64,000 bases of DNA, taken from contig OY782497.1 in assembly GCA_963677705.1 (NCBI GenBank), forward strand, positions 4,152,627 to 4,216,626. The letters are read 5' to 3'. The notes under the pieces were generated by a model, which worked only from the letters and a program-made list of their open reading frames with translations, was not told where the DNA came from and searched no databases. Positions 3,308 to 58,518 of the stretch are shown in pieces (the first letter of the stretch is position 1; each line of letters starts with the position of its first letter). The DNA comes from Myxococcota bacterium (lineage in GTDB: Bacteria > Myxococcota_A > SURF-8 > G963677705). The translations under genes were made by a program, and so were the position numbers.

Positions 3308-3440
3308 CCCTCACTGGGATGCCTTTCGGCATCCTGTCTCTCCCAGAGGGAGAGACGACATTTCCCTCTTCCGCTCAGGAGAGGGAAGCGAACAATGTGA
3401 GCGAGGGTGAGGGAAACCGGGGTTTGTCAATAACCTCGAA
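3308..3440. repeat. Palindromic GC-rich intergenic repeat module (family shared with 33830-33990, 36840-36960, 40678-40735)
   Basis: The unit cccctcactgggatgcctttcggcatcctgtctctcccagagggagag recurs near-identically at about 40678-40728. The ctcaggagagg / gagggaaaccggggtttg modules recur at 33898-33950 and 36895-36935. Confidence 0.45.
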
Positions 3441-29713: not shown

Positions 29714-31273
29714 ATGGCATTGCGCCTGGGACAAACCTTAAAATTACAACAAAGCCTGGTGATGACGCCTCAGCTTCAGCTTGCCATCAAGCTGCTGCAA
29801 ATGACGAGGCTGGAGTTGCAGGAAACCATCCAGACCGAGCTTTTGGAAAACCCCACGCTGGAATTGAGTGAAAGCGAGGCGGAAGCCCAAACCTCTACCG
29901 AGGATCTGCACAAAGACCCGGAGTTTCAAGGCAGCCTGGAAGACAGCGTTCCCGATGCCGCTCAACTCAAAAAGCTGGACTCCAACGAGCAGCTCAACCA
30001 GGATTTCAAAGAGGATCTTCACGAGAATCTGGACAGCGCGAAGAACGACCAGAACAGTGAGATGGACTGGGACGCCTACTTCGATTCCTACGATGACAGG
30101 CCAACGCCCAGCGCCCCCAGAGATCCCAACGCGGAAGAGGACGCGGTCAACCTGGAAGGCGTGCTGACCCAGGAACACTCGATGTATGATTTCCTGCATT
30201 GGCAGGTCAAACTCAGCAATTACACCGAGCAGGAACAGGCCATCGCCGAAGAGATCATCGGCAACATCAACGAAGACGGCTACCTCCGTATCGAAGATGA
30301 AAAGGGGCGCTTCCAACCCGTCTCGCTGGAAGACATGGCCGAGCGCCTGGAGGCTCCGCTCTCTGAGGTGGAACGCATCCACAAACGCATCATGCGCCTG
30401 GACCCCATCGGCATCGGTGCGCGGAATCTGCGTGAATGTCTGTTGATGCAGGCCCGCTTTTCTTCCAACCGCAGCAGCCTGGTGGCGCGGATTCTGGAAC
30501 ACCACTGGGATCTGGTGGAGAAACGGGACATCGCCAAAATCGCCAAGGTGTTGAAGATCAGCAAAGACGAGGTGATTGAAGCCTTCAAGGTGATGACCAC
30601 CTACGATCCCAAGCCCGGCCTGGGCCACAGTTCGGAACATACGGAATACGTCACACCGGATATCTACATCACCAAAGTCGGTGACGATTACCATATCACC
30701 TTGAATGATGACGGAATGCCCAAGCTGAAAATCAGCAACTATTACAAGCAGGCGCTGCGCAACAAGAAAGGGCCCAACGAGGCACGGGAGTATATCAAAG
30801 ACAAGCTGCGCGGAGCGAGTTGGTTGATTAAAAGCATTCAGCAGCGCCAGCGGACCATCTACAAGGTGGCCGATTCCATCGTCAAACAGCAACGGGATTT
30901 CCTGGATTACGGTGTAGACCACTTGAAGCCGATGGTTCTGCGGGACATTGCCGAGGACATCGGGATGCACGAATGCACGGTCAGTCGTGTAACCACCAAC
31001 AAGTACATCCATACGCCCCAGGGAATTTTCGAGCTGAAATACTTCTTCAACAGCGGGATCACCAACAGCGAAGGCACGGACATCGCTTCGGAAACCATCA
31101 AGAACAAGATCCGCCAGATCGTCAGCCAGGAAAACCCCAAGAAACCCTTCTCTGACCAGAAACTGGTGACCATGCTCAAACAGGATGGTGTGGATGTCGC
31201 CCGGCGGACCGTAGCCAAATATAGAGATATGCTGGGGATTCTTTCTTCTTCCAAGCGAAAGAAAGCCTTCTGA
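29714..31273 (+). CDS. rpoN: RNA polymerase sigma-54 factor
   Basis: N-terminal LKLQQSLVMTPQLQLAIKLLQMTRLEL activator-interacting region and a C-terminal RpoN box RRTVAKYRDMLGI. Confidence 0.9.
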   Translation: MALRLGQTLKLQQSLVMTPQLQLAIKLLQMTRLELQETIQTELLENPTLELSESEAEAQTSTEDLHKDPEFQGSLEDSVPDAAQLKKLDSNEQLNQDFKEDLHENLDSAKNDQNSEMDWDAYFDSYDDRPTPSAPRDPNAEEDAVNLEGVLTQEHSMYDFLHWQVKLSNYTEQEQAIAEEIIGNINEDGYLRIEDEKGRFQPVSLEDMAERLEAPLSEVERIHKRIMRLDPIGIGARNLRECLLMQARFSSNRSSLVARILEHHWDLVEKRDIAKIAKVLKISKDEVIEAFKVMTTYDPKPGLGHSSEHTEYVTPDIYITKVGDDYHITLNDDGMPKLKISNYYKQALRNKKGPNEAREYIKDKLRGASWLIKSIQQRQRTIYKVADSIVKQQRDFLDYGVDHLKPMVLRDIAEDIGMHECTVSRVTTNKYIHTPQGIFELKYFFNSGITNSEGTDIASETIKNKIRQIVSQENPKKPFSDQKLVTMLKQDGVDVARRTVAKYRDMLGILSSSKRKKAF

Positions 31274-31336
31274 GCTATGTAGATTCTTTCCGCTTGAATG
31301 GGCAGGGAGGATGGTCGCTGGTGCCGGCTATTAACC

Positions 31337-31396
31337 CGGCAGCAACAAGTTAGACGGAGCATCCATTTTGTCATTCCCGCGAAGGCGGGAATCCAG
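31337..31396. repeat. About 60-bp dispersed repeat ending in the hairpin gtcattcccgcgaaggcgggaatccag (second copy at 39790-39849)
   Basis: cggcagcaacaagttagacggagcatccattttgtcattcccgcgaaggcgggaatccag vs cggcaacaataagttagacgaggcaccggttttgtcattcccgcgaaggcgggaatccag. Confidence 0.55.
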
Positions 31397-31435: not shown

Positions 31436-32626
31436 ATGATGAACGGTTCTCGGTACCCTGCTTTTACGCGACGTTTTCGTTTCCCTTTTTGTTTCCTTTT
31501 TCTTTTCCTTTCCCTCTTGGCTTACGCCTGTGATTCCGGGTCTTCCGATGTGGATTCCCAACTCGACGGCGATCTGGAGCAGGAGGAGGAAGCCTCCATA
31601 CCTCAGGAGATTCACCATTGCTTCGGGGGAAACAAGCAGGCGGATCGCTGTGAAACGGCAAGCGACTGTGAAGCAGAAAGCCGTTGTGGGGAAGCTCCCC
31701 AAGGTGTGAGTTACACCTGCTCCGAAGGTGTCTGCCGGGTAAAACCGCTTGATGGTGAAGATGGGGATGAAGACCAGGCAATGGACTACGAACAACCTGA
31801 TTGTACGGATGAACAAACGGGGCGGGCCAAGATTGATTGTCTTCCCACCTGTTGGACTGGAAATGCGACACCTAGACCCTGCAAGCTGGACTTCCATTTC
31901 AAGTACCTGGATGACGAAGGCCGTTTTGAGATCGGTCAGCCGGGGGGGTATAGGATTACGGGGATTGATGCATGGAATGGTTGGGCTGCGTTCTATTACA
32001 GTCATCTTGAGAGTGGAGAACCCACAGGGTTGATGCTATTCGATTACCCCACCAAACAAACCGCTCGCTTTTCCATCCCCGGTGATTCTTCGTTCTGGCC
32101 TTCGTTGGGCGGCAATCGACTTGCCTGGACCAAACATAACTCAGGCAGGGGGGATGATCTCTACACCACGCGCCTGGATAACTGGGAAACCCGGCTGGCA
32201 GTGGGAGTTGATACCTACATCGGCAAAACAGCGATCAGTGAGCGGGGAGTGTTCTGGGATGATGGCCGTACCGGTGAAGGGAGTGAGCGGGTCTATACGA
32301 TCAACGAGGAAACCGGAGAAGAAAAGCTCCTCAGTTCCAAGGCGATGAAGTGTTTCGATGTCTATGACAACATGCTGGTCTACCTGTTCCTGAACGATGT
32401 CTTGATGGGCTATAACCTGGACACGGGCGTAGAAGAAGCAATGATGGCCGATGAGGATTCCTACTACGCCAGAGCCAAAATGAAACTATGGGAGCGAAAG
32501 GCTTACTTTTCCAACGTCAGTCTGGCTACCACGAACCCGGATTGCAGCTATTCGGTGATGGAAGTGGACTTGGATACCAAGACCACCCGTGTGGTAGTAC
32601 CTAGGCAGTGTCGTCATGAGATATGA
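31436..32626 (+). CDS. Lipoprotein with an N-terminal Cys-rich module (paralogous to the 35496-36539 gene) and a beta-propeller/TolB-like region; 3' end abuts the IS5 element
   Basis: Lipobox LLAYAC. Module IHHCFGGNKQADRCETASDCEAESRCGEAPQGVSYTCSEGVC. Start set at MMNGSRY (31436). Confidence 0.6.
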   Translation: MMNGSRYPAFTRRFRFPFCFLFLFLSLLAYACDSGSSDVDSQLDGDLEQEEEASIPQEIHHCFGGNKQADRCETASDCEAESRCGEAPQGVSYTCSEGVCRVKPLDGEDGDEDQAMDYEQPDCTDEQTGRAKIDCLPTCWTGNATPRPCKLDFHFKYLDDEGRFEIGQPGGYRITGIDAWNGWAAFYYSHLESGEPTGLMLFDYPTKQTARFSIPGDSSFWPSLGGNRLAWTKHNSGRGDDLYTTRLDNWETRLAVGVDTYIGKTAISERGVFWDDGRTGEGSERVYTINEETGEEKLLSSKAMKCFDVYDNMLVYLFLNDVLMGYNLDTGVEEAMMADEDSYYARAKMKLWERKAYFSNVSLATTNPDCSYSVMEVDLDTKTTRVVVPRQCRHEI

Positions 32627-33099
32627 AGCCATAGGGCTAGACAGCGGATATGTACCGCAGCGAGGAAAGACGCGGTGTTCTTCGCATAACGCGTTGCAAC
32701 ACCACGCCAACGTTTCAGCTTTTCAAAGGCATTTTCAACCAGATGGCGTTCACGGTACAAGTCTTTGTCGTAGTTACGTTGAACCGTTCGATTCTTCTTT
32801 GGAGGAATCACCGGACACGTATCGTTTTTCTCGCATAGGCCAATGATGCTATTTGTATCATAACCACGATCAGCCAGTAAATTAGAGGCTGGTAGCCCTT
32901 CAATCAGATTTTCAGCCTCTTTGCAGTCAGCTTGGGTACCTTTTGCAAGAAGGACTCGGATCGGAAACCCATGCGCATCCACGGCCAGGTGTACCTTGGA
33001 ATTGAGCCCCCTTTTGTTTGACCCGCGTCCTGCGTTCCGCCTCGGGCACCCGTGGCATCGTGGTGGACTTTGACATGCGTGGCGTCGATCATCAGCCAT
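32614..33099 (-). CDS. IS5-family transposase OrfB (DDE catalytic part)
   Basis: LADRGYDTNSIIGLCEKNDTCPVIPPKKNR...HLVENAFEKLKRWRGVATRYAK. Confidence 0.7.
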   Translation of the reverse strand: MADDRRHACQSPPRCHGCPRRNAGRGSNKRGLNSKVHLAVDAHGFPIRVLLAKGTQADCKEAENLIEGLPASNLLADRGYDTNSIIGLCEKNDTCPVIPPKKNRTVQRNYDKDLYRERHLVENAFEKLKRWRGVATRYAKNTASFLAAVHIRCLALWLHIS

Positions 33100-33377
33100 T
33101 CGTAGTCGGGATCATCAATCAAAATATCCAGTAAATTCTCCCAGATGCCTTTATCTCCCCAACGAATAAACCGGCGATGGGTATTGTTCCAACTGCCATA
33201 ATCGGGCGGTAGGTCGCGCCAATGTGCACCGGTTCGCAAGATCCAAAACACACCATTAATGAATCGTCGATTGTCTCTGGCAATCCCGCCCCATTGGCCT
33301 TTCTTCCCCGGTAAATGTGGCTCCAAGAGTTCCCAAGCGTGGTCGGAAATATCATGACGGTGATAAGTGGCATCCAT
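32904..33377 (-). CDS. IS5-family transposase OrfA (HTH/N-terminal part)
   Basis: MDATYHRHDISDHAWELLEPHLPGKKGQWGGIARDNRRFINGVFWILRTGAHWRDLP is the canonical IS5/IS427 OrfA. Confidence 0.7.
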   Translation of the reverse strand: MDATYHRHDISDHAWELLEPHLPGKKGQWGGIARDNRRFINGVFWILRTGAHWRDLPPDYGSWNNTHRRFIRWGDKGIWENLLDILIDDPDYEWLMIDATHVKVHHDATGARGGTQDAGQTKGGSIPRYTWPWMRMGFRSESFLQKVPKLTAKRLKI

Positions 33378-33453
33378 TGTATTCCTCTGAATAGTTTCTA
33401 TTTAAAGGAATGTAGACCAGCAGAGTCGTCTTGTCCAGGAAAATCTATAACTC

Positions 33454-33828
33454 ATGTCGACACCTCCTACGGAGAATAACATCAACAAGCTGTTCTATGA
33501 TGTCTGGGAAGACTGGATTGTCTATGGGGATTATGATCCTGAACGCAGTCCGGATACCCGTTCTACCTGTGGTTATAACAACCAAGCCGCCGCAGAGATT
33601 ATCCTTCGTTACCTACCTACGGGCGAGGAATGGAACCTGAGTAAGAAAGCTGGAGAACAACTTGATGCCCGAATGTGGGGGCCTTTGGTGGTCTGGGCCG
33701 ATTACCCCTGGAAAGAATACGACGATGGAAGTAGCTACATCAGCCCGATTCAAGATGTCAACGGTATTGATCTGTGTATGCACCCGGAGTTGAAAGACAG
33801 ATTCCCGGAGTGCGCCGGGAGAAAGTGA
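33454..33828 (+). CDS. Hypothetical small protein between the two IS elements
   Basis: 124-aa ORF of moderate composition. No motif. Confidence 0.3.
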   Translation: MSTPPTENNINKLFYDVWEDWIVYGDYDPERSPDTRSTCGYNNQAAAEIILRYLPTGEEWNLSKKAGEQLDARMWGPLVVWADYPWKEYDDGSSYISPIQDVNGIDLCMHPELKDRFPECAGRK

Positions 33829-33829
33829 A

Positions 33830-33990
33830 GGCAGGTCGCTGGAGAATCGCCCTCACCCTGCTTCGCTGCGCTCGCTTCCCTCTCCCGGAGGGCGAGGGAC
33901 AATTCACCTCTCCCTCTCAGGAGAGGTCGGAAACCAAGGGTTTCCGGGTGAGGGAAATTCTCCAGCGACCTGACTCCCTTGCCCGACCTT
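33830..33990. repeat. Palindromic repeat module (cggaaaccaagggtttccgggtgaggg; ctctccctctcaggagagg)
   Basis: Shared with 36895-36935 and 3370-3430. Confidence 0.4.
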
Positions 33991-34105
33991 GTATTATACC
34001 TTCCAGTGCGTTTGTCTGTATAATCGAGCGACAATAGGAGCCCGCGAGACCCTCAAAAATCTCGCGGGCGGTGGACGGCGAGATCGTCCCGACCTTGGGT
34101 CGTAA

Positions 34106-35200
<1,095 letters not shown>

Positions 35201-35299
35201 GTTGCTTACGCCGACGCCCACCGACCTGCCGAACTCTATCGTGTCCAGCATTTTCAGGCCCACGGCGGGGCGGTCACCTATGCCGCGCATCAGGGTGTT

Positions 35300-36185
35300 T
35301 TTCAACACCCTGTCAGCCCCTTCGGCTGCTGGCGAATTTACAGGCAGTTATTGGTATAGCTGTAACTCTGACAAGAGTCCGGCGTGCCGTCGCAGTCATC
35401 ATCATAGCTAGAAGTCAACCGGTTGCCGTCTTCGTCATAGGTATAGCTGTGACAAGAGTCCGGCGTGCCGTCGCAGTCTGAATCATTACGATGGCTCAAC
35501 TCATTGCCGTTTGCGTCATAGGTGCGGCTGTAACAACCGTAGTCTGCCGTGCCGTCGCAGTTATAAAGCTCAGCTCATTGCCGTTTGCGTCATAGGTATA
35601 GCTGTAACAACCACGATCCGGCGTGCCGTCGCAGTATGAATCTTCGCTAGAGCTCAACCGGTTGCCGTTTGCGTCATAGGTGGAGGTGCGACAATAGTCC
35701 GGCGTACCGTCGCAGTCATCATCTTCACGATTGCTCAACTCATTGCCGTTTGCGTCATAGGTGTAGTTGTGACAAGAGTCCGGCGTGCCGTCGCAGTCTG
35801 AATCATTACGATGGCTCAACACATTGCCGTTTTCGTCATAGGTATAGCTGTTGTAACAAGTATCCGGCGTTCCGTCGCAGTCTTCATCCCGGCTATAGCT
35901 CCTCTTATTGCCGTCTTCGTCATAGGTATAGCTGTAACAATCGGCGTCCGGCGTACCGTCGCAGTCATCATCCCGGCTGTAGCTCAACTTATTGCCGTCT
36001 TCGTCATAGGTGTAGCTATAACAACCCTCGTCCGGCGTACCGTCGCAATCATCATCTTCACGATAGCTCAACTCATTGCCGTCTTCGTCATGGGTGCGGC
36101 TGGTACAACCATGATCCGGCGTGCCGTCACAGAGCAGATCATAATAATAAACCTCAATATAACAGCCGTCGGTGGTGTCATCATC
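35300..36185 (-). repeat. About 81-bp coding tandem repeat array (YD/Rhs-like unit C-DGTPD-xxCYSYTYDxxGNxLSxxxDDD), 10 or more copies, extending past the annotated stop
   Basis: The repeat continues from 36185 down to about 35335, although the ORF stops at 35496. Confidence 0.65.
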
Positions 36186-36539
36186 ATCATCGTCATCTGC
36201 TGTGTCGCCGTCGGTAGTGTCATCATCATCGTCGCTGGAGGTGTCTCCGTCTGCGCTGGCTTCGCCTTCGCTGTTGCAAACACCGTCGGTGCAACTGTAA
36301 CTCACACCGTCGGGAGCTTCTCCGCAGCGGCTTTCCGTTTCACAATCCGCCGCCGTTTCGCAACTGTCTCCTTGCTTGTTTCCTTCATAGCAATGGTGAA
36401 TCTTCTGAGGCAGGTAATCTTCTTGCTCTGCTTGGTCAAAATCGCCGTCAGCCTGAATCAAGACTAGCGAACCGGAGTCGCCACAGGCAACAAAAACCAA
36501 CATAGATAGCAAAATAAAACTATTCATGATATAATTCAC
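35496..36539 (-). CDS. YD-repeat lipoprotein with poly-Asp linker and N-terminal Cys-rich module; probably frameshifted (repeats continue in another frame to about 35335)
   Basis: Lipobox LVFVAC. Module IHHCYEGNKQGDSCETAADCETESRCGEAPDGVSYSCTDGVC, paralogous to the 31436 gene. The alternative frame after about 35500 translates to further CDGTPD..YTYDxDGN repeats ending ...SYSYTNNCL. Confidence 0.6.
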   Translation of the reverse strand: MNYIMNSFILLSMLVFVACGDSGSLVLIQADGDFDQAEQEDYLPQKIHHCYEGNKQGDSCETAADCETESRCGEAPDGVSYSCTDGVCNSEGEASADGDTSSDDDDDTTDGDTADDDDDDDTTDGCYIEVYYYDLLCDGTPDHGCTSRTHDEDGNELSYREDDDCDGTPDEGCYSYTYDEDGNKLSYSRDDDCDGTPDADCYSYTYDEDGNKRSYSRDEDCDGTPDTCYNSYTYDENGNVLSHRNDSDCDGTPDSCHNYTYDANGNELSNREDDDCDGTPDYCRTSTYDANGNRLSSSEDSYCDGTPDRGCYSYTYDANGNELSFITATARQTTVVTAAPMTQTAMS

Positions 36540-36839
36540 AGGAACCTCCTATCTGTTTCCGGCTTTTGTATGCTTCGTTCCTTAGTTTGAGCGGCGGGCG
36601 TGAGGATGTCAAGGAAATTTCGTTGGCTTGCCTTTCTTTGCCCGACACTCTTCCCCTCCTTGGTGTGGTGGACATGCAGGGTAGAATGCCTTGATGAAAA
36701 ACTTGAGACGGCTATCTATCGAAGGGGATGGACGGTTGGGGTAGCAATGACAACCGGCATTTGTGGGATCGCCTCAACGATGAATGGTTCAATCCGACTT
36801 TCGGGAAAGTTTGAAGATACACGCCCGTCAACGATGGAT

Positions 36840-36960
36840 AACGGTTCGCAAGAAACCCATGTCGGGCAAGGAATTTGCCCGACCAAGCGGGTAGAATCGC
36901 CCTCACCCGAAAACCAAGGGTTTCCGGGTGAGGGGCTTGGGATGACACCCGGCAAGAAAT
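36840..36960. repeat. Cluster of palindromic repeats (gtcgggcaaggaatttgcccgac; cccgaaaaccaagggtttccgggtgagggg)
   Basis: The gtcgggcaaNNNNNttgcccgac hairpin recurs at 39716-39738 and 40636-40658. Confidence 0.45.
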
Positions 36961-37240
36961 TTGCCCAGTTTCTTGGGCCATCTTTCCTGATGGACCTTTT
37001 TCTGAAAATGTGTTAAATAAGTAGGTATTGGGAGTATTTCCAAGTCTATGATTTTATACGTTCTATTCAGTGGAAGAAACTCCTGATAATCTGTCGGGTC
37101 GGGGAAAGGCTGAGGTGCGGTCGGCGGATCGCACCTGGGGTTGAACGGACAAGTTCCTGAAACATCGAAGGGTTCCTGAGAAGAAAAGAGTGGATTTAGG
37201 TAGATAAAAGATTGACAATATAACTCCAATTAAGTAAAAT

Positions 37241-39619
37241 TTGATTAAATTTAGGAGAGCAAAACTCGTTGTCCTTCGGAGGCGCTCAATGGAGAAGCCA
37301 ACATCTACCTCGTATTTTGATCCGCTGCTGGAGCGTGGCAAGCAGTTGTCCGCCCTGGTCAATGATACTCGCGGCCTGCAAAGCGCCGGTCCGGCGGGAC
37401 GGTTTTTCTTTTCCGCCCTCTTGGCCGGTCTGGGGCTGTTTCTCTGCGAGCAGCTTCTGGTGCTGCTTTCGGGAAGCCGTCCCTTCGTCTCCGGAGCCCA
37501 GGCGGTGCGCTTTGCCTTCTTTTCCGCCTCGCTGCTTGGCGTGTGGCTTCTGCCTTACGCCTTCTTTGGTGGAACCCTCTTCGGCCTGGTGCAGGAACAC
37601 CTGGACCCCTTCACCCGGTTGTGGGATTGGTTTCGTATCAGCCGCCTGGATGCCCGTGCGGATCGTCGTCACGCGGCAAGTCTTGTCGCCTTCATCAGCG
37701 CCTTCGGCTTTCTGCTGGCCAGCCAGTTTCTGGTCAACGTCTATCTGAGTAGCAACTACAACGCCAAGGCTTTGGCCGGAATCGTCTTTACCCTCGGCCT
37801 GCTCTTTCTGCTGGGCTTGTCCATCGTTCTGTATGCCAGCCTAAACCATGTGCTTCGCCGTTGGTTCATCAAGCTCCCCGATGTCTTTGACGGCGGCTTG
37901 ACGCTGTTGATTCTGCTCGTGGTGGGGGGCGTGGCTCTGTTGGGAGCCGGTGTGATGGTCCGCCGCAGTTGGGCCACGCTGGAGTTGCTGAATCTCAAGC
38001 CCCTGATGGTCGTCGGTGTTTTCCTGGTGCTGCAAGCCATCGGCTTGCGCCTGCTTCATCATCCCTTGCTGGATGACTTCACCCGTTATGTGACGCGCCC
38101 CATTCACCGGGTGAGCCTGGCCGCCTCCTGGGTCTTGCTGCTTGCCTTGACCATCTACAACTTCAATCAGGACCCGCATTCCGCCTTTGTGATGCGCCAC
38201 TACGCGCCCTTGTCTCAACTGGCCGTGCGTGCCGTGCAAACCCTGGGGGATCGTGACGGCGACGGCTATGCCTCCATTCTGCTGGGTGGGGATTGCAACG
38301 ACCGAAACCCCGGTATCAACCCCACCGCCAGGGATATTCCCGGTAACGGTGTGGACGAAGACTGCCTCGCCGGAGATGCCGCCATTCCCGCCGCCAAACG
38401 CTACGACTGGTTGGACGAGGAAACCCAACTGCGTCTGGCCAGCCTGCGCAGCGAATGGAACATTCTCCTGATCACCATCGACGCCCTGCGCGCCGACCAT
38501 ACCGGTTTCGGTGGCTACGATCGCCCCACCACGCCGGAGTTGGACCAGCTCGCCGAGGAATCCGTGGTGTTCGAGCGGGCCTATACCCAGGCTCCCAACA
38601 CGCCCCAGGCCATTCCGGCCTTGATGAGTGGCCGCTATCCCTCCGAGATCGACTGGAGCCATTACCACAACTTCCCCCGCGTGAAGGACGACACCCCGCT
38701 GCTGCATGAACTCTTCCAGAAGGAATTGGGCTATCAGTTCACCGGCGTATTTGGCTATTGGTATTTTGAAAACCGCAATCTGGAACGGGGTGCGAAAACC
38801 TGGGACAACCGTGTCTGGGACCGGAACGCCCACCCGGAAAGCCACGTCACGGCCAACAAAATTACGGACAACGCCCTGGAACACCTTCATGCTCTGGGCA
38901 ACGATCCAAGCAACCCGCAGTTCTTCTGGCTGCACTATTTCGATCCCCATTTCCTCTACAACCGGCACAAGGGGATTCGCAACTTCGGGGAACGACCGAT
39001 GGATCGTTACGACCATGAAATCCTCGGCACCGACCGTGAGGTGGGACGTTTTCTGCGTGAGTTCCGCCAGACGAAGCTTTGGGACCATACAGTGGTGGTG
39101 ATTACCGCCGACCACGGTGAGGAATTCGGCGAACATGGCGGGCGTTTCCACGGAGCGCACCTGTATGAAGAAGTGGCTCACGTTCCTTTGATGATCCGCA
39201 TTCCCGGCGTGACGCCGCGCCGTGTTTCCAAGCCGGTTTCCAGTGTGGATCTCGCCTCGACCCTGGGGCAACTCTGCGGGCTGGCACCCCACGCCGACCC
39301 GACGCAGGGGAAATCCCTGCTGCCTCTGGCCTTGAATGTGGAAGGCTACGATCACGGCCCGGTGTTCAGTGAAAAACTCAAGCTTCCCGCCTTCCCTTAC
39401 ACGCTGCGGACCTTCATTGACGACAACTGGAAGCTGGTGGACCGCCCCGACGAGATGCGCTTTGAACTGTACAACCTGGATGTCGATCCGATGGAACAGG
39501 ATGATCTTTCCGACCGTCTTCCCGAACGATTGGCACGGATGAAAAAGCAGTATGCCGACTGGAAAGCCGAACACCTCACCGGCAAGGCCGATTGGTATAA
39601 ACTGGCCGCCGGGATGTAG
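37241..39619 (+). CDS. Membrane-anchored sulfatase-fold (alkaline-phosphatase superfamily) hydrolase/transferase, with Thr/Asn in place of the FGly-forming Cys
   Basis: N-terminal multi-TM region. Catalytic domain ILLITIDALRADH...APNTPQAIPALMSGRYP...DHGEEFGEHG. The alternative start MEKPTS at 37289 is plausible. Confidence 0.7.
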   Translation: MIKFRRAKLVVLRRRSMEKPTSTSYFDPLLERGKQLSALVNDTRGLQSAGPAGRFFFSALLAGLGLFLCEQLLVLLSGSRPFVSGAQAVRFAFFSASLLGVWLLPYAFFGGTLFGLVQEHLDPFTRLWDWFRISRLDARADRRHAASLVAFISAFGFLLASQFLVNVYLSSNYNAKALAGIVFTLGLLFLLGLSIVLYASLNHVLRRWFIKLPDVFDGGLTLLILLVVGGVALLGAGVMVRRSWATLELLNLKPLMVVGVFLVLQAIGLRLLHHPLLDDFTRYVTRPIHRVSLAASWVLLLALTIYNFNQDPHSAFVMRHYAPLSQLAVRAVQTLGDRDGDGYASILLGGDCNDRNPGINPTARDIPGNGVDEDCLAGDAAIPAAKRYDWLDEETQLRLASLRSEWNILLITIDALRADHTGFGGYDRPTTPELDQLAEESVVFERAYTQAPNTPQAIPALMSGRYPSEIDWSHYHNFPRVKDDTPLLHELFQKELGYQFTGVFGYWYFENRNLERGAKTWDNRVWDRNAHPESHVTANKITDNALEHLHALGNDPSNPQFFWLHYFDPHFLYNRHKGIRNFGERPMDRYDHEILGTDREVGRFLREFRQTKLWDHTVVVITADHGEEFGEHGGRFHGAHLYEEVAHVPLMIRIPGVTPRRVSKPVSSVDLASTLGQLCGLAPHADPTQGKSLLPLALNVEGYDHGPVFSEKLKLPAFPYTLRTFIDDNWKLVDRPDEMRFELYNLDVDPMEQDDLSDRLPERLARMKKQYADWKAEHLTGKADWYKLAAGM

Positions 39620-39649: not shown

Positions 39650-39860
39650 TGTTTATCGTAAATCGGGCAAGGCATTGAATCCGATAGGCCCGAAGATTCC
39701 AGCCTTCAACAATCATAGTCGGGCAACTTCCTTGCCCGACAAGGCTTGTGACGGCTTGTGAAGTCTGTAGCGACAAGAAAATATCAACCCGGCAACAATA
39801 AGTTAGACGAGGCACCGGTTTTGTCATTCCCGCGAAGGCGGGAATCCAGAGTAAATTCAT
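39650..39860. repeat. Composite repeat cluster (hairpins atcgggcaaggcattgaatccgat, gtcgggcaacttccttgcccgac, and the 60-bp gtcattcccgcgaaggcgggaatccag element)
   Basis: Direct comparison with 31337-31396, 36843-36870 and 40600-40660. Confidence 0.5.
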
Positions 39861-39951
39861 CCGGCTGGATCCTCCGCCTGCGCGGAGGATGACGATTCTT
39901 AAGCTCGGTTATAATCGCCGGGTTATTGCAACAAGATCAAAGGATGAACTC

Positions 39952-40596
39952 ATGAGTTGCCACAATTTCCTGTTTATACCTCTGATGCTACTACTCTGCC
40001 TAGGTCAGGTCTCGTGTTTTGAGTTCCCTAAAAATACCGAGGGTCAAGAAGGTGGACGTTGTACAGATGACGGAAAATGCGATCCTGGTCTGTCTTGCTG
40101 TGTAAATCATAGATGTCGAACAACTTGTGTGTGGGAAGATGGAACCACGGGATTGATGTGGATGAACCCTCCTCCATCGGAGCAAATGAATTGGACCCAG
40201 GCCGAAGAGTTTTGCGAAACCTGGAATTACCAAGGTATGAATGGTTGGCGTTTGCCACGAATGGATGAGTTATGTAGCCTTCTTGATGGATGCCCAGAGC
40301 TTGGAGAAGAAGAGAAATGTGGATTCGGTGCGGATTATTCACGGATGACACTCATGGATGCGATAAATTGCTTTTATAGTAGCCAATGTGAATCATCTTC
40401 AGAGGCTTGCTATGTATCGGAAGATTTGGTTGAGGCATCAAGCGTATCACCCGGATCACCAAATTATTGGTCGTCTGATACATACATAGAAGATGATAAC
40501 GAAATGTGGAAAGTTAGCTATACTCATCAAGGATCTGCGATCATCGCAAGAATAGAGACAGCCACAGGTTATGTCCGCTGTGTTCGTGATAATTGA
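39952..40596 (+). CDS. Secreted Cys-rich DUF1566 (Lcl C-terminal, C-type-lectin-like) domain protein
   Basis: Signal peptide. GLMWMNPPP...MNWTQAEEFCETWNYQGMNGWRLPRMDEL...YWSSDTY...RCVRDN is characteristic of PF07603. Confidence 0.6.
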   Translation: MSCHNFLFIPLMLLLCLGQVSCFEFPKNTEGQEGGRCTDDGKCDPGLSCCVNHRCRTTCVWEDGTTGLMWMNPPPSEQMNWTQAEEFCETWNYQGMNGWRLPRMDELCSLLDGCPELGEEEKCGFGADYSRMTLMDAINCFYSSQCESSSEACYVSEDLVEASSVSPGSPNYWSSDTYIEDDNEMWKVSYTHQGSAIIARIETATGYVRCVRDN

Positions 40597-42053: not shown

Positions 42054-43094
42054 ATGAAAACGCGACGTAGTCTTGGTTTGGTGCTGCTGGCTTGTCTGGT
42101 CTTTACGCTGGCTCTTTCGGCTTGTTCGGAAGATTCAGACGATGATTCCACCGTGGATGGAGACGACTCCCAGTCTGACGGGGATGATCCCAGTGACGAT
42201 GACGATGACGAGGAGGATGGCGACGAAGAGCAAGCCGATCCGGACGCCCTTGAACTGACCGTGATGACGTACAATATTCTCTGCTACTTCTGCGACACGG
42301 TGAACTACGATCCTTGGGAAGATCGCATCGGCTACCACCGTGAAACCTTTGTGCGGCACAATCCGGACCTGATCGGCATTCAGGAACTGTTTCAGTTGGA
42401 GGATCTGGACCAACTGCTGGAACCCAACCCGGAGTATGAAGCGATTTATTACGTGGATGATGGGGAGGGGATTTTTGATACCTATACCGACGCTGCGATT
42501 TTCTACAAGAAAGACCGCTTTGACGTGGTGGAAACCGGGTTTTACTGGCTGAGCGACGATCCGGATACGCCCTTCACCGGCTTCAGTTCCGAGGAAGAGC
42601 AGGGCAGCCGGAAAGCCTCTGCCTTCTGGCGTATGGTTGCCTGGGCCGTGTTTACCGACCGCGCAAGCGGAAAAGACTTCTATTTTTCAACGACCCACTT
42701 TGACAACAACACCCCGCATCAAGAGCAGAGCGCTCCCATTGCCTTGTCTTACATTCAACCCTATGCGGAACGGATGCCCGTGGTCTTCGTGGGGGATTAC
42801 AACTCCAAGCCGGATACCATCGCCTACGGCTTGTTAACCGAAGGGGTGGAGGGCTCGGACTTCTCTCTGGTGAACAGCTTCGATCTCGCCGAGCAATGGT
42901 CCGTGTCCTCCAATCTGGAACCCACGCCGGAATATGACCCGAACGATCGCATTGACCATATCTTCCTGCAAGGCCCATCCGATTGGACGGTTTCCTCCTG
43001 GGTGGTGGATATGACCAGCTACGGAGAGTCAGGCCGTTATGCCTCGGACCATTTCGCAATGATTGCTACGCTGCGCTACGCCTTGGATGAGTGA
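42054..43094 (+). CDS. Lipoprotein with poly-Asp/Ser linker and endonuclease/exonuclease/phosphatase (EEP) domain
   Basis: Lipobox LALSAC followed by SEDSDDDSTVDGDDSQSDGDDPSDDDDDEEDGDEE. EEP motifs LTVMTYNI ... GIQE ... SDHFAMIATL. Confidence 0.7.
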   Translation: MKTRRSLGLVLLACLVFTLALSACSEDSDDDSTVDGDDSQSDGDDPSDDDDDEEDGDEEQADPDALELTVMTYNILCYFCDTVNYDPWEDRIGYHRETFVRHNPDLIGIQELFQLEDLDQLLEPNPEYEAIYYVDDGEGIFDTYTDAAIFYKKDRFDVVETGFYWLSDDPDTPFTGFSSEEEQGSRKASAFWRMVAWAVFTDRASGKDFYFSTTHFDNNTPHQEQSAPIALSYIQPYAERMPVVFVGDYNSKPDTIAYGLLTEGVEGSDFSLVNSFDLAEQWSVSSNLEPTPEYDPNDRIDHIFLQGPSDWTVSSWVVDMTSYGESGRYASDHFAMIATLRYALDE

Positions 43095-46030: not shown

Positions 46031-46666
46031 CTATTCTTCGGTGAAGGGAATCACACAGCTTGTGGTATCCAGGCAATCCATGAAGGAATCACAGGCGTCT
46101 TCGTTCAGGCAATCGGCAAGGTTGTTGAACCCGTCGGAGGTCATCATACCGCCCAAGCTCAAACAGAAGCCATCCATGTCACTTTCAAAGCCGGAGACAT
46201 CGGTGATGTCCTGGCACAATTCCAGACCTTTGCTGGCCAGATCGGCACAGGTGGCTTCCACATCGCTCCCCACCTGTGTGTTGGTCAGCACTTCCTGCAT
46301 ACAAGGAGCGACGATTTGCCCATCGGTGCAGACCTCGCCGCCCAGGCAATCTTGAAAGGCGTTGGCAAACTCATCGTTCCATTCCCAGGTCAGCAGGCGG
46401 CAACTCTCAACGCAGTTGTTGTCACCTTCGCAGGCTTCGATCACTTCGCAGGCTCCTTCGCAGATACCACTATAGTCCGAGGCCTCTTCGGTTTCACGGC
46501 TGGCACAGATCTGCTCGAAGCTCTGGTCGGTGTTGTTGTCATCGTCGTCATCGTCACCGTTGTCGTCACCGCCGCTACCATCATCATCGTCGCCACAACC
46601 ACTGACGAAAGCCACAGACAGACCCAGCAGAACAATCAGAATAAACAGACTCGGTTTGAATTTCAT
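46031..46666 (-). CDS. Cys-rich lipoprotein with poly-Asp linker (unknown function)
   Basis: Lipobox AFVSGC then GDDDDGSGGDDNGDDDDDDNN. About 20 Cys in the mature domain. Confidence 0.55.
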   Translation of the reverse strand: MKFKPSLFILIVLLGLSVAFVSGCGDDDDGSGGDDNGDDDDDDNNTDQSFEQICASRETEEASDYSGICEGACEVIEACEGDNNCVESCRLLTWEWNDEFANAFQDCLGGEVCTDGQIVAPCMQEVLTNTQVGSDVEATCADLASKGLELCQDITDVSGFESDMDGFCLSLGGMMTSDGFNNLADCLNEDACDSFMDCLDTTSCVIPFTEE

Positions 46667-56079: not shown

Positions 56080-58518
56080 ATGGTCCGTCAATCCTTCGGC
56101 CTGATACTGGCTCTGTTTCTTTTGCTTCTGCTCCTCGTTGCCTGTTCTTCATCCAGTGAGGGTGACCCGGACCCGGATGGGGATACAAGCGATGGAGATA
56201 ACCCGACAGACGACGATGACGACGACGACGATGATGATGACACCCTGGATGGAGATACCGAGGAAGATGGCGATGAGCCGAACCCCCTCGTTCCGCGAGA
56301 TCCGCCGGCTTTCGCCAACCCGCTGATGGATGAACCCTATCTTCAGGAGTTCAACCATACCAGCAACGAGGTGGAAGCGGGCCTGGAAAACCTGGTGTCC
56401 GTACTGCTGCCTCCGGCAGACTTCACCACCTTTGATGAACCGACTCAAATTACCCCACGCGGCGTGGTACGTCACACCACCGAAGGAAACGTTGAGGTAC
56501 TTTCCATTCTGGAAGCCGAGGCCGACCTTGTCGCTGCGGCAACCAATGCGGATACAATCTTCCTTGTCTCTGGAACCACGGTTTATACCGTCAACGCCGA
56601 AGGCACCGTGCAAAGCCTGGCCGCACTCCCCGACGCTTGCCAGACACCGGGGCTTTCCAACGGTAGCGCGCAGGCTTACCTGTTCTGTGAAAGCGGACTC
56701 TACCTGCTCAGCGCGGACGCCCTGACGCCGGTGGACTTCATCAACCAGGCCGTCACGGCGGTTACCGAAAGCCTCAACGGCTTGTATATCGCCGGTGAGG
56801 GGTTCGTCAGCCTGTACGATCCCTCCGATTCCACCACCCAAGCCACGTGGAGCCTTGGCACCAACGATAACCTCCCCGACGCACCGGTAGTCGCCGTGCT
56901 GGAAAATCTCAGTCTGCCGGAAGCCTTGGATCTGGTCGTTGTTACAACAACCCAGACCGTGGGTGTTCGCCTCAGGGATGGACAGGCCAGCGTGCTGACA
57001 GACATCGAAGCCTTCCAAAGCGACCGCATTCCGCTGATGCCCGTTCGTGGTGCGACGAAAACCGGCGACGGCGGATTCATTCTCTATACCGCCGAAGGCG
57101 GAGCCTGCCGGATTATGGAACGTGGTCACGGCCCGGAATGGCGTGTGTACAACTGGGAGCGTTGGCTGCCTAACGAGAACGTTCGTGCCGTGGTAACCCC
57201 GGCGGACAGTGACACCGCACCCATCTGGTTTGCCACCGCCGGAGGTCTGGCGACCGTGACCGCCCAACGGATGACTCTGCAAGAAAAAATGGCTTTGTTT
57301 GACGAACGCCTGGAATTGCGTCACGACCGCGACGGAGCGGTGGCCGACAGCCGCTTGAGCGTCAAAGGAGATTTGTCCACCAGCGTTCCCTATGACAGTG
57401 ACAACGACGGCGGCTGGACCTGCTATCAAGTCTTGGCTCAGTGCTATCAATACCGCACCACCGGGGACGAACGGGCCAAGCAACGCTTTGACAAAGCCTT
57501 GGACGCCATGCTCAACCTGCATGACCTTACCGGTACGGACTATTTCCTGGGCCGTTCGGTGATCCGCAAAGAAGGCTGCCAGTTGGATGACTGCGACAAC
57601 CCCGATGATGGCGAGTGGTTCACCAGCCCCGATGGAGAATGGTGGGTCAAGGCCGACACCAGCAACGATGAAGTGACCAGCCACATGTTCATGATGGGCC
57701 CGGCCTATGATCTTTGCGCCGATGACGAGCAGAAAGAGCGCATTCGTCGCCATGTGGGAGACATCATCGGCGGTATCGTGGAGAACAACTACCAATTGGT
57801 AGACCTGGATGGCGAAGTCACCACGTATGGACAACTCGGTCCTGATTACGTCAACGATAGCATTCAGGGGCAGTTCGGAGATGGCGGAAGGCGCAGTGCG
57901 CAGATGATCGCCAACCTGAACCTCGCCTATTACCTCACCGGCGAACAGCGCTTTGCCGATGCCAAAGCGGATCTTTTGGATAACCATCATTATGCAGAGA
58001 ACATCCTTGGTGAAGCGGATTATCCCTTCCGTGCCGGTCATGGCAGCAATGACGGCAATGAACTGGTCACCCAGGCGTACATGATCCTCTTGCGCTATGA
58101 GCAGGATAACGAACTGTACGAAACCTGGAAAGACGCCTGGGCCAACAGCTATAGCTATATGCGTCCCCAGCAAGCCAGCCTGTGGGATGTGGCCAACGCC
58201 ATCCTGGACGGGCCGGAGCCGGATATGGCGATGACCCGCCGTTGGCAACGTCTGGCCCCGGTGGATATGATTCGCTGGACCGTGCACAATGGCCACCGTC
58301 AAGACCTGGCCGAGCCGACGGAATATTATCAGGATCTGGGCTTCATTCGCACGGATGGCTTCATTCTTCCCTACGATGAGCGTCCCTGTGACCGCTTCAA
58401 CCAAAGTCAGCTCAACTATGACGGCGGGAACAACGGTATGAAGGAAATGGATGGTGCCGAGGCGCTTTCCACCTACTGGATGGCCCGTTACTACCAGTTG
58501 ATCGTACCGGCGGAATAA
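56080..58518 (+). CDS. Large lipoprotein (812 aa) with poly-Asp linker; unknown function
   Basis: Lipobox LLLLLVAC, then SSSSEGDPDPDGDTSDGDNPTDDDDDDDDDDDTLDGDTEEDGDE. The antisense ORF 56149-58722 is a shadow. Confidence 0.6.
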   Translation: MVRQSFGLILALFLLLLLLVACSSSSEGDPDPDGDTSDGDNPTDDDDDDDDDDDTLDGDTEEDGDEPNPLVPRDPPAFANPLMDEPYLQEFNHTSNEVEAGLENLVSVLLPPADFTTFDEPTQITPRGVVRHTTEGNVEVLSILEAEADLVAAATNADTIFLVSGTTVYTVNAEGTVQSLAALPDACQTPGLSNGSAQAYLFCESGLYLLSADALTPVDFINQAVTAVTESLNGLYIAGEGFVSLYDPSDSTTQATWSLGTNDNLPDAPVVAVLENLSLPEALDLVVVTTTQTVGVRLRDGQASVLTDIEAFQSDRIPLMPVRGATKTGDGGFILYTAEGGACRIMERGHGPEWRVYNWERWLPNENVRAVVTPADSDTAPIWFATAGGLATVTAQRMTLQEKMALFDERLELRHDRDGAVADSRLSVKGDLSTSVPYDSDNDGGWTCYQVLAQCYQYRTTGDERAKQRFDKALDAMLNLHDLTGTDYFLGRSVIRKEGCQLDDCDNPDDGEWFTSPDGEWWVKADTSNDEVTSHMFMMGPAYDLCADDEQKERIRRHVGDIIGGIVENNYQLVDLDGEVTTYGQLGPDYVNDSIQGQFGDGGRRSAQMIANLNLAYYLTGEQRFADAKADLLDNHHYAENILGEADYPFRAGHGSNDGNELVTQAYMILLRYEQDNELYETWKDAWANSYSYMRPQQASLWDVANAILDGPEPDMAMTRRWQRLAPVDMIRWTVHNGHRQDLAEPTEYYQDLGFIRTDGFILPYDERPCDRFNQSQLNYDGGNNGMKEMDGAEALSTYWMARYYQLIVPAE

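What the first reader, a model, noticed from the sequence alone, without database searches (positions are those of the whole stretch)
31436..36539. Two paralogous Cys-rich-module lipoprotein genes, each 3'-disrupted by a different IS element (IS5-family and IS110-family)
The genes at 31436-32626 and 35496-36539 share a distinctive N-terminal module, not recognised as a known domain: IHHC[FY]xGNKQxDxCETAxDCExESRCGEAPxGVSYxCxxGVC. It follows a lipobox and an acidic linker. The C-terminal parts differ (beta-propeller-like vs YD repeats). The first gene's stop overlaps the IS5 OrfB terminus, so its C-terminus (..VVVPRQCRHEI) is probably IS-derived. The second gene has the IS110 transposase about 190 bp downstream of its degenerate repeat end. 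This locus looks like a hot spot where a lineage-specific surface-protein family is being remodelled by IS activity.
Basis: partly seen in the sequence, partly recalled or inferred. Interest (0 to 1): 0.55.

Follow-up and report, generated by a model that had tools for sequence, protein, structure and literature searches.

The report
Orphan Cys-module lipoprotein family, IS-disrupted
Two lipoprotein genes of an uncultured myxobacterium-like bacterium share a small six-cysteine domain known from this species only; one gene is split by a jumping gene and the other is broken by a small deletion, which is ordinary gene-family decay apart from the unrecognised domain.

Summary
Genes A (31436-32626, +) and B (36539-35496, -) share a signal peptide, an acidic linker and a six-Cys 'IHHC...GVC' module (58% identity over 84 aa, E 3e-28). 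The module matches nothing in Pfam, NCBIfam or PDB. An exhaustive HMM search of 1.84 billion proteins found it only in paralogues from this one species.

- Gene A is interrupted, not truncated. An 864-bp IS5-family element (32604-33467, TA duplication) sits after codon 389. The last 119 codons lie intact and in frame at 33470-33828, and they are the family's most conserved part.
- Gene B is not disrupted by the IS110 element. A 10-nt deletion in one 84-nt repeat unit shifts its frame. The corrected frame ends at a family-typical C-terminus (stop 35340-35338), 172 nt before the IS110 end.
- The IS110 element (about 33988-35165) targets a REP hairpin that lies downstream of gene A and of its paralogues.

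A 99.9%-identical strain differs exactly at this locus, so it is a real hot spot. Most of the remodelling is paralogue gene conversion, repeat-unit gain and loss, and small indels. The function of the module is only inferred. Interest is modest.

The parts
31436..32603 (+). Gene A, 5' part (codons 1-389 and the first base of codon 390). It encodes the lipoprotein signal peptide (lipobox ..LLAYAC), acidic linker, Cys module, second acidic linker and most of a beta-propeller.
   Evidence: It is identical to database protein P0001.
31598..31747 (+). Six-Cys 'IHHC' module of gene A (IPQEIHHCFGGNKQADRCETASDCEAESRCGEAPQGVSYTCSEGVCRVKP).
32604..33467 (-). IS5-family insertion sequence, 864 bp. IRL is GGCAGTGTCGTCATGAGATAT and IRR (reverse complement) is GGAGGTGTCGACATGAGTTAT. 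orfA (DUF4096) is 33377-32904 and orfB (DDE) is 33099-32614. A TA duplication lies at 32602-32603 and 33468-33469. Positions 32604-32626 supply the false C-terminus RQCRHEI* of gene A.
   Evidence: The uninterrupted paralogue L003 is continuous across the site.
33470..33828 (+). Gene A, displaced 3' part (rest of codon 390 to the stop; 119 codons). It is intact and in frame, and encodes the last propeller blades and the conserved ...GIDLCMHPELKDRFPECAGRK end.
   Evidence: (P0016 reads ..VVVPTENNINKLF.. across the site).
33834..33957 (+). REP-type repeat block downstream of gene A. It is shared with the 3' flanks of the paralogues and with window 3308-3413.
33988..35165 (+). IS110-family element. 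The left non-coding end is 33988-34192 (205 nt, structured), the transposase is 34193-35146, and the right end is 35147-35165 (..CAGTCGCTAC). The left boundary is inferred, to within a few bases, from occupied and empty hairpin sites.
35338..36539 (-). Gene B, full extent. The annotated ORF is 36539-35496. It has about 11 units of 81/84 nt (36131-35347). One unit is 74 nt (35633-35560), a 10-nt deletion that shifts the frame. The corrected frame stops at 35340-35338.
36264..36413 (-). Six-Cys 'IHHC' module of gene B.
35166..35263 (.). 98-nt spacer between the IS110 right end and the 3' flank of gene B. It is missing in the sister strain, where a truncated second IS110 copy is fused directly to position 35264.
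36861..36883 (+). Unoccupied copy of the REP hairpin GTCGGGCAAGGAATTTGCCCGAC, the IS110 target.

Best explanation
Shown: the window comes from a 5.18-Mb contig of an uncultured bacterium. Its sigma-54 is closest to those of Myxococcales and Polyangia MAGs, at 48-55% identity. The genome carries a species-restricted family of at least six lipoprotein genes. They share a constant N-terminal cassette made of a lipoprotein signal peptide, an acidic tether and a roughly 42-residue module (IHHC-x9-C-x5-C-x5-C-x10-C-x4-C). The cassette is fused to three unrelated bodies: (i) a 7/8-bladed beta-propeller with a conserved C-terminal cap (gene A and three or more paralogues); (ii) an array of 28-aa CDGTPD/YD repeats (gene B); (iii) an Lcl_C (DUF1566) domain (P0012). 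Gene A was knocked out by a simple insertion of an 864-bp IS5-family element after codon 389. This removes the last propeller blades from the product. The displaced 119 codons are still intact. Gene B is cut short by a 10-nt deletion inside its tandem repeats, not by an IS. The IS110-family element is a site-specific (RNA-guided type) element. It inserts directly after a REP hairpin that lies about 130 nt downstream of each propeller paralogue. It therefore sits between the convergent genes A and B without touching either. The paralogues have near-identical 5' ends (upstream region through the module) and 3' ends (last 25 codons plus the REP block), with divergent middles. Leaders have been exchanged between two 99.9%-identical strains. 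Homologous recombination and gene conversion, repeat-unit gain and loss, homopolymer and small indels, and IS110-flanked segment rearrangement together remodel the family. Inferred: the module is a folded extracytoplasmic adaptor or stalk domain. It is stabilised by three disulfides and/or a metal bound by the invariant His-His and acidic residues. It holds different ligand-binding bodies off the membrane anchor, and it replaces the EGF-like module that occupies the same position in distant homologues.
For: Module shared. Module is an orphan: an exhaustive hmmsearch of 1.84e9 representatives gives only P0001, P0002 and P0012 as real hits. All are on the same 5.18-Mb or 4.08-Mb contigs. Pfam, NCBIfam and PDB searches are negative. 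The GTDB species scan is negative. Purifying selection on the module: dN/dS is 0.18 at dS 1.24. IS5 insertion: inverted repeats and TA duplication. The reconstructed 508-aa protein aligns end to end with 10 homologues, and its displaced C-terminus is the best-conserved block. The intact paralogue P0016 and locus L003 are continuous across the site. Propeller: AF2 gives pTM 0.70 and pLDDT about 80 for residues 120-508, with strands continuing after residue 389. Foldseek hits are all beta-propellers. Gene B: one 74-nt unit among 81/84-nt units. Homologues end soon after the last repeat (..CQFYDHLCF*..CRAWNYACFAVAD*), as does the corrected gene B. IS110: the right end is identical in three copies. 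Three hairpin sites are occupied and five are empty. The family is known to target REP elements and to have a long left end (PMC11208160, PMC12288879). Mosaicism: A against A' is 100% identical from -30 to +640 and then 50-64%. A against the P0020 gene is 88-97% at the 5' cassette and the 3' end, and 27-58% between. P0003 and P0020 have the same body but different leaders. Strain differences are confined to this locus. EGF-like module in distant homologues at the same position.
Against: No expression or biochemical data exist, and the module's fold is unresolved. AF2 gives pLDDT 65 with five sequences, and Foldseek finds nothing at E<1. The stalk/adaptor role is therefore inference only. Disulfide and metal-site chemistry cannot be told apart. 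The organism has anaerobe-type genes (rubrerythrin, multihaem cytochromes). The left junction of the window's IS110 carries 21 unique nucleotides in place of the hairpin's left arm. The 720-aa gene that is missing here exists elsewhere in the same genome. The exact rearrangement history is therefore unresolved. The contigs are metagenome assemblies. Repeat-array and homopolymer differences could partly be assembly error. The rest of the 5.18-Mb genome could not be read, so the family size is a minimum.
Confidence: 0.75

Rival explanations
1. One reading: both genes lost their 3' ends to two different IS elements, and IS activity is the main agent remodelling the family.
For: The IS5 element does interrupt gene A. 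The IS110 element lies about 200 nt from the repeat array of gene B. IS110 copies flank a strain-variable 2.6-kb segment.
Against: The 3' end of gene A is fully retained downstream. The defect in gene B is an internal 10-nt deletion, and its natural stop and 172 nt of non-IS flank are intact. IS110 insertions are intergenic, at REP hairpins. Most differences are conversion tracts and repeat turnover.
Confidence: 0.08
2. The shared N-terminus is only a homogenised leader. It would be a DNA tract copied among paralogues by gene conversion, with no function of its own as a protein domain.
For: The A/A' tracts are 100% identical and the A/P0020 tracts 88-97% identical, with sharp boundaries. A leader has been swapped between strains.
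Against: A against B has saturated synonymous divergence (dS 1.24), yet 34 of 50 residues are invariant, giving omega 0.18. P0012 keeps all six Cys, HH, and the D, E and R positions at 52% identity. The polar invariant residues argue for a functional site.
Confidence: 0.1
3. The strain-level 'hot spot' is an assembly artefact. Long-read metagenome assemblers could have mis-joined IS110 copies and collapsed or expanded the 84-nt repeats and G-runs.
For: All structural differences lie at repeats: IS110 copies, the 84-nt array and a G7/G6 run. The IS5 copy shows an odd excess of SNPs.
Against: Two independent multi-megabase contigs agree on the IS5 insertion, the gene B frameshift and all flanks. 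The truncated IS110 copy in L001 has a clean GGCGG microhomology junction. The 10-nt deletion is not in a homopolymer.
Confidence: 0.15
4. The module is a divergent member of a known small disulfide-rich fold (EGF-like, or cysteine-stabilised alpha-beta/defensin-like) rather than a new domain.
For: An EGF-like module occupies the same position in distant homologues and in the neighbouring 720-aa lipoprotein. The AF2 model shows a short helix plus a beta-hairpin. The top Foldseek rows, which are not significant, are scorpion CS-alpha-beta toxins.
Against: The Cys spacing C-9-C-5-C-5-C-10-C-4-C lacks the EGF C-x-C signature. No Pfam or PDB hit is significant (best E 0.005-0.07 on partial stretches). 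Foldseek E values are at least 3.9.
Confidence: 0.2

Closest known systems
IS5-family insertion sequences of the two-ORF (DUF4096 OrfA + DDE OrfB) type, NCBIfam NF033580 transpos_IS5_3 (IS427/IS1031-like groups; group assignment from my own knowledge of ISfinder)
   Same: 864 bp in length, with about 21-nt imperfect terminal inverted repeats starting GG, a 2-bp TA duplication, and an overlapping pair of DUF4096 and DDE_Tnp_1 ORFs.
   Different: No other copy lies in the window. By my reading, going from orfA to orfB needs a +1/-2 shift at ACAAAAGGGGGC, so this copy may be inactive or carry a G-run indel.
IS110-family bridge-RNA recombinase elements that target REP sequences (IS621, ISPpu9; PMC11208160, PMC12288879)
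   Same: It has DEDD_Tnp_IS110 and Transposase_20 domains and scores 239 bits on NF033542. It has no terminal inverted repeats. The left non-coding end is long (205 nt) and structured and the right end is short (19 nt). Insertion is site-specific, directly after a REP hairpin, at three independent sites.
   Different: The bridge RNA is not demonstrated and there is no Rfam hit. The window's copy has an atypical left flank that keeps only TTGCCCGAC of the hairpin.
Paralogous lipoprotein families with a conserved 5' region and leader but divergent mature parts, e.g. Borrelia Erp/OspE-F 'upstream homology box' genes (own knowledge; the term occurs in PMC10016077)
   Same: The upstream region and signal peptide are near-identical among paralogues whose bodies are about 40% identical or unrelated. 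There is evidence of recombination between paralogues.
   Different: Here the conserved cassette also encodes a folded Cys-rich module and the 3' end is conserved too. The organism is a free-living, uncultured Myxococcota-like bacterium. No link to immune evasion or to prophages is seen.
YD/RHS-repeat proteins (PF05593, TIGR01643)
   Same: The 28-aa units of gene B contain the YxYDxxGN signature and score above the Pfam threshold. More than 170 homologous repeat lipoproteins exist in metagenomes.
   Different: The units are short and regular, and each is bracketed by a CDGTPD..C pair. There is no Rhs core, shell or toxin tip. The proteins are 300-650 aa lipoproteins or T9SS substrates, not Rhs/teneurin toxins.
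Bacterial beta-propeller lipoproteins (DUF5050, TolB-like, oligogalacturonate-lyase fold)
   Same: Residues 120-508 of gene A are predicted as an all-beta 7/8-bladed propeller. The best structural matches are 3pe7 and 3c5m (TM 0.60 on the target), WD40 and kelch.
   Different: The DUF5050 score of 21.4 bits is below the 27-bit threshold. No catalytic residues can be transferred. The family has its own conserved C-terminal cap (YLPTGEEWN..MWGPLVVW..DLCxHPELKDRFxEC).

Membership tests
IS5 family | DDE transposase (DDE_Tnp_1) with an IS4/5-type N-terminal domain | tested here: met
   PF01609 at E 1e-18. PF13340 at E 5.8e-26. NF033580 scores 139.9 bits against a 110-bit cut-off.
IS5 family | Terminal inverted repeats and a short target-site duplication | tested here: met
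   The 21-nt inverted repeats match at 17 of 21 positions. TA flanks both ends. Removing the IS and one TA restores the reading frame and the paralogue sequence.
IS5 family | Intact transposase, expressible through a programmed frameshift | tested here: inconclusive
   Two overlapping ORFs are present. The frame relation appears to be +1/-2 at a G5 run (my reading).
IS110 family | DEDD (RuvC-like) domain plus Transposase_20 domain | tested here: met
   PF01548 at E 2.5e-27. PF02371 at E 2.1e-19. NF033542 scores 239 bits against a 140-bit cut-off.
IS110 family | Sequence-specific insertion, often into REP elements, with no terminal inverted repeats | tested here: met
   Three copies are inserted directly after GTCGGGCAAGAAATTTGCCCGAC and five hairpins are empty. 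The ends CTTGTATT.. and ..GTCGCTAC are not inverted repeats.
IS110 family | Bridge RNA encoded in the long left non-coding end | tested here: inconclusive
   The left end is 205 nt and the right end 19 nt. The fold z-score is -3.2. A 10-nt copy of the left junction (CCCGACCTTG) lies inside the left end. There is no Rfam match and no covariation test was made.
Bacterial lipoprotein (Lgt/LspA substrate) | Hydrophobic signal peptide ending in a lipobox with an invariant Cys | tested here: met
   Gene A has ..FLFLSLLAYAC|DSGS and gene B has ..LLSMLVFVAC|GDSG, read from the sequence. lgt and lspA are present in the genome. No dedicated predictor was available.
YD/RHS repeat proteins | YD repeat signature above the Pfam/TIGRFAM threshold | tested here: met
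   PF05593 scores 27.5-33.5 bits against a 22-bit cut-off. TIGR01643 scores 18.6 bits against 15.8.
Rhs/teneurin-type toxins | Large YD shell, Rhs core and C-terminal toxin | tested here: not met
   The protein has about 400 aa and no core or toxin domain. Homologues are small lipoproteins.
DUF5050 beta-propeller | Pfam gathering score | tested here: not met
   21.4 bits for gene A and 15.6 bits for P0016, both below 27. Only the fold class is supported.
EGF-like domain | Six Cys with the C-x-C spacing between Cys 4 and 5, or a Pfam EGF match | tested here: not met
   The spacing is 9-5-5-10-4. There is no EGF hit even at E<=10. True EGF-like modules are seen in distant homologues and in the 720-aa neighbour.

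The most novel reading that the evidence does not exclude
The constant 5' cassette (leader, tether and IHHC module) and the constant 3' block (last 25 codons, REP array and IS110-target hairpin) could act as recombination handles of a cassette system. Such a system would swap or rebuild the bodies of surface lipoproteins. The REP-targeting RNA-guided IS110 recombinase would supply portable homology or site-specific breakpoints. This would be a surface-variation mechanism in a free-living myxobacterium-like lineage. The module itself would be a new metal- or partner-binding domain.
Probability: 0.1. Interest if true: 0.6.

Novelty: new member of a known kind. Interest (0 to 1): 0.3.

Why it matters
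The finding corrects an annotation-level reading. One gene is a recent, reversible-looking IS knockout whose two halves should be merged. The other is a frameshifted repeat protein and not an IS casualty. It documents an orphan six-Cys domain that public data show in a single uncultured species. The domain is fused to three unrelated binding scaffolds, which makes it a candidate for a new Pfam entry and a small target for structure determination. It also gives a clean natural example of an IS110-family element repeatedly hitting one REP hairpin next to members of a gene family. Finally, it shows conversion-driven leader swapping between near-identical strains. None of this overturns current understanding.

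Tried and rejected
- A scan of GTDB species genomes for the module gave only an 11-residue chance match in a Rhodobacterales MAG.
- Rfam on the whole window returned no family, so no annotated bridge RNA was found.
- NCBIfam, Pfam (E<=10) and PDB sequence searches on the module returned only insignificant partial matches: late nodulin, EB module and aspergillopepsin.
- The AF2 model of the module alone has low confidence (pLDDT 65), and Foldseek returns no match better than E 3.9. I do not use the scorpion-toxin resemblance.
- P0013 and P0014 from the exhaustive search were rejected as translated junk repeats.
- Look-ups of P0002, P0003, P0012, P0016 and the window's own A and B proteins in the contig index failed. 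The 5.18-Mb contig is not indexed. The paralogue loci therefore had to be taken from the sister 4.08-Mb contig.
- I tested whether the window is a simple IS110 x IS110 recombinant of the L001 arrangement. The 21-nt unique left junction does not fit, and the 720-aa gene is present elsewhere in the same genome. I left this point open.
- I first mis-joined the gene A reconstruction by 5 nt and corrected it.


Full report
**1. What is in the sequence**

ORF listing and domain scans give the following order.
- rpoN: 29714-31273, +.
- Gene A: 31436-32626, +.
- An IS5-family element with orfA 33377-32904 (DUF4096) and orfB 33099-32614 (DDE_Tnp_1, NF033580).
- A 124-aa ORF with no domain hit: 33454-33828, +.
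- An IS110-family transposase: 34193-35146, + (NF033542, 239 bits).
- Gene B: 36539-35496, -.
- A sulfatase: 37241-39619, +.

BLASTP of A against B gives a single significant segment. It covers the signal peptide, acidic linker and Cys module, with 49/84 residues identical and E 3e-28. The DNA is 75% identical over 174 nt. tblastn finds only these two copies of the module in the 64-kb window.

**2. Gene A is interrupted, not truncated**

Reading the junctions shows imperfect 21-nt inverted repeats. They are GGCAGTGTCGTCATGAGATAT at 32604 and the reverse complement of GGAGGTGTCGACATGAGTTAT ending at 33467. Both ends are flanked by TA.

Removing the 864-bp element and one TA joins ...VVVP to TENNINKLFYDVWEDW..., which is exactly the frame of the 'orphan' ORF at 33454-33828. 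The reconstructed protein has 508 aa.

It finds full-length homologues: P0002 and P0003 at 40% identity and 96-98% coverage, and P0004-P0011 at 25-31% identity. In the alignment the block displaced by the IS is the best-conserved part of the family (VWEDW, YLPTGEEWN, MWGPLVVW, GxDLCxHPELKDRFxEC).

A 90%-cluster member, P0016 (507 aa), reads ..TKTTHVVVPTENNINKLF.. straight across the site. The paralogous locus L003 is collinear at the DNA level across it: window 31405-32603 matches L003 9970-11164, and window 33466-33957 matches L003 11161-11622. The tail RQCRHEI* is encoded by the IS left repeat.

AF2 on the reconstruction gives pTM 0.70 and pLDDT about 80 for residues 120-508. The model is an all-beta propeller whose strands continue to residue 490. 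Foldseek returns only propellers: oligogalacturonate lyase, WD40, kelch and TolB. The 396-aa product therefore lacks its closing blades.

**3. Gene B is not an IS110 casualty**

The repeat array is made of 81- or 84-nt units, except for one 74-nt unit at 35633-35560. That 10-nt deletion shifts the frame and produces the annotated end ...FITATARQTTVVTAAPMTQTAMS*.

In the original frame, three more units follow. The protein then ends ...DCDGTPDSCQSYSYTNNCL*, with its stop at 35340-35338.

A search with the corrected protein finds more than 170 repeat lipoproteins (PF05593). None of them has the module. Their C-termini stop just after the last repeat (..CQFYDHLCF*..CRAWNYACFAVAD*..CDTWSY*), as the corrected gene B does. 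P0040 even shares gene B's layout of lipobox, poly-acidic linker and CxVEHYDLDEKCDG, minus the module.

The IS110 right end is fixed at 35165 (..CAGTCGCTAC). Three copies diverge into different flanks at exactly that base. This leaves 172 nt of non-IS DNA after gene B's natural stop.

**4. What the IS110 element is doing**

Occupied and empty sites show that the element sits directly after a dispersed REP hairpin, (CAT)GTCGGGCAAGRAATTTGCCCGAC.
- Occupied sites: L001 14249, L001 18010 and L004 11772.
- Empty sites: window 36861 (+), window 40657 (-), L003 11627, L005 7736 and L004 9883 (-).

This hairpin follows a REP block about 130 nt downstream of every propeller paralogue. The element in the window therefore belongs to gene A's 3' flank and has the same orientation as gene A.

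The left non-coding end is 205 nt and the right end is 19 nt. The left end folds better than its shuffles (z -3.2). It also contains CCCGACCTTG, which is identical to the left junction. This matches the IS110 subgroup layout, the targeting of REP elements and the lack of terminal inverted repeats described in PMC11208160 and PMC12288879. The bridge RNA itself is not demonstrated, and Rfam gives no match.

**5. The module**

The Cys spacing is C-9-C-5-C-5-C-10-C-4-C. The invariant residues are Q, I, HH, N, Q, D, E, D, E, R, G, A, P, G, Y and G.

An exhaustive HMM search of 1.84 billion cluster representatives returns only P0001 (gene A itself), P0002 and P0012 as genuine hits. Cluster look-ups place all of them on the 5.18-Mb contig, which is the window's own genome because P0001 equals gene A and P0142 equals RpoN, or on the 4.08-Mb sister contig. 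P0012 joins the module to an Lcl_C domain (59.5 bits).

The module is thus fused to three unrelated bodies, and public data show it in one species only. In distant members of the propeller family, an EGF-like module occupies the same position between two acidic linkers.

Between A and B, dS is 1.24 and dN/dS is 0.18. The protein sequence is therefore under purifying selection.

The fold remains unresolved. AF2 gives pLDDT 65, with a short helix and a hairpin, and Foldseek finds nothing significant. My functional reading is an anchor-proximal adaptor or stalk domain stabilised by disulfides and/or a metal. This is inference.

**6. Remodelling of the family**

Sliding-window identity shows mosaic paralogues.
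- A against A' (L003) is 100% identical from -30 to +640, apart from a G7/G6 run. Identity then drops abruptly to 50-64%, and returns to 80-95% further on (one search shows the sharp break).
- A against the P0020 gene (L004) is 88-97% from -118 to the end of the module. It is 27-58% in the body, and 82-97% over the last 80 nt and the downstream REP block.

P0003 (5.18-Mb strain) and P0020 (4.08-Mb strain) are 93-100% identical in the body. Their signal peptides are unrelated, and P0020 carries the A-type leader. That indicates a recent conversion between paralogues.

I compared the window with L001, the same locus in the sister strain.
- There are 7 SNPs in the 11.7 kb upstream and none in 36110-38223.
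- There are 6 SNPs in gene A and 12 in the IS5 element.
- A 21-nt stretch is replaced at the IS110 left junction.
- L001 carries an extra 2.6-kb segment. It holds a 720-aa EGF-module lipoprotein gene plus a second IS110 copy truncated at a GGCGG microhomology.
- Gene B's array has different unit content: three units are unique to L001 and two are unique to the window.

Gene A is IS-split and gene B is frameshifted in both strains. A' is intact in one strain and frameshifted at the G-run in the other.

**7. Organism**

The best named relatives of RpoN are Myxococcales, Polyangia, Haliangium and Kofleriaceae sequences, at 48-55% identity. Other lipoproteins in the window share the lipobox-plus-acidic-tether design. 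I infer an uncultured, deep-branching Myxococcota-like bacterium.

**8. Verdict**

- The IS elements are ordinary members of their families.
- The propeller and the YD-type repeats belong to known fold or repeat classes.
- The only new item is an orphan six-Cys domain and the conversion-maintained cassette architecture around it.

Unresolved points are the 21-nt odd junction, the location of the 720-aa gene in the window's genome, the SNP excess in the IS5 element, and the module's chemistry and fold.

Noticed in passing
window 36861-36883 (+), 40657 (-); L003 11627, L005 7736, L004 9883 (-); occupied at L001 14249, L001 18010 and L004 11772: A dispersed REP hairpin, GTCGGGCAAGRAATTTGCCCGAC, is the specific insertion point of the IS110 element. 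It lies about 130 nt downstream of each beta-propeller paralogue.
   Followed up: yes
window 33958-33978: 21 unique nucleotides (TTCTCCAGCGACCTGACTCCC) replace the left arm and loop of the hairpin at the IS110 left junction. The sister strain has the normal hairpin at the same place. The origin of these nucleotides is unknown.
   Followed up: partly
L001 15450-18526 (absent from the window between 35165 and 35264): The sister strain has an extra 2.6-kb segment here. It carries a 720-aa lipoprotein gene with Teneurin-type EGF modules and a 5' fragment of a second IS110 copy. The same 720-aa protein is on record on the window's own 5.18-Mb contig, so the segment sits elsewhere in that genome.
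   Followed up: partly
window 31942-31948: A G7 run lies inside gene A and A'. The A' copy of the 4.08-Mb strain has G6 and is frameshifted. This is either slipped-strand (phase-variation-like) change or a homopolymer sequencing error.
   Followed up: partly
window 32604-33467: The IS5 copy differs at 12 of 864 positions between the two strains, against 7 differences in the 11.7 kb of upstream flank. Going from orfA to orfB seems to need a +1/-2 shift at ACAAAAGGGGGC rather than the usual -1.
   Followed up: no
window 34088-34097 and 33982-33991: The 10-mer CCCGACCTTG of the IS110 left junction recurs inside the structured left non-coding end. It could be a guide segment of a bridge RNA.
   Followed up: no
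window 31329-31396 and 39782-39849; L004 18413-18480: A second REP-type repeat, which translates as ..IPAFAGMTK.., lies just upstream of gene A and of the Lcl_C gene at 39889. It is part of the conserved 5' flank of the paralogues.
   Followed up: partly
window 39889-40596 (+), 42054-43094 (+), 46031-46666 (-), 56080-58518 (+): Four further lipoprotein or secreted-protein candidates lie in the window. 39889-40596 has a Cys-rich N-terminal region and an Lcl_C/DUF1566 domain. The other three have a lipobox followed by a long acidic linker, and 46031-46666 has 17 Cys. The lipobox-plus-acidic-tether design recurs in this genome.
   Followed up: no
window 37241-39619 (+): A membrane-anchored sulfatase with a MopE-type putative metal-binding motif (PF11617) lies next to gene B.
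   Followed up: no
L004 12018-12953: Another full IS110 copy, 97.6% identical, sits at the same relative position downstream of the paralogue P0020.
   Followed up: yes
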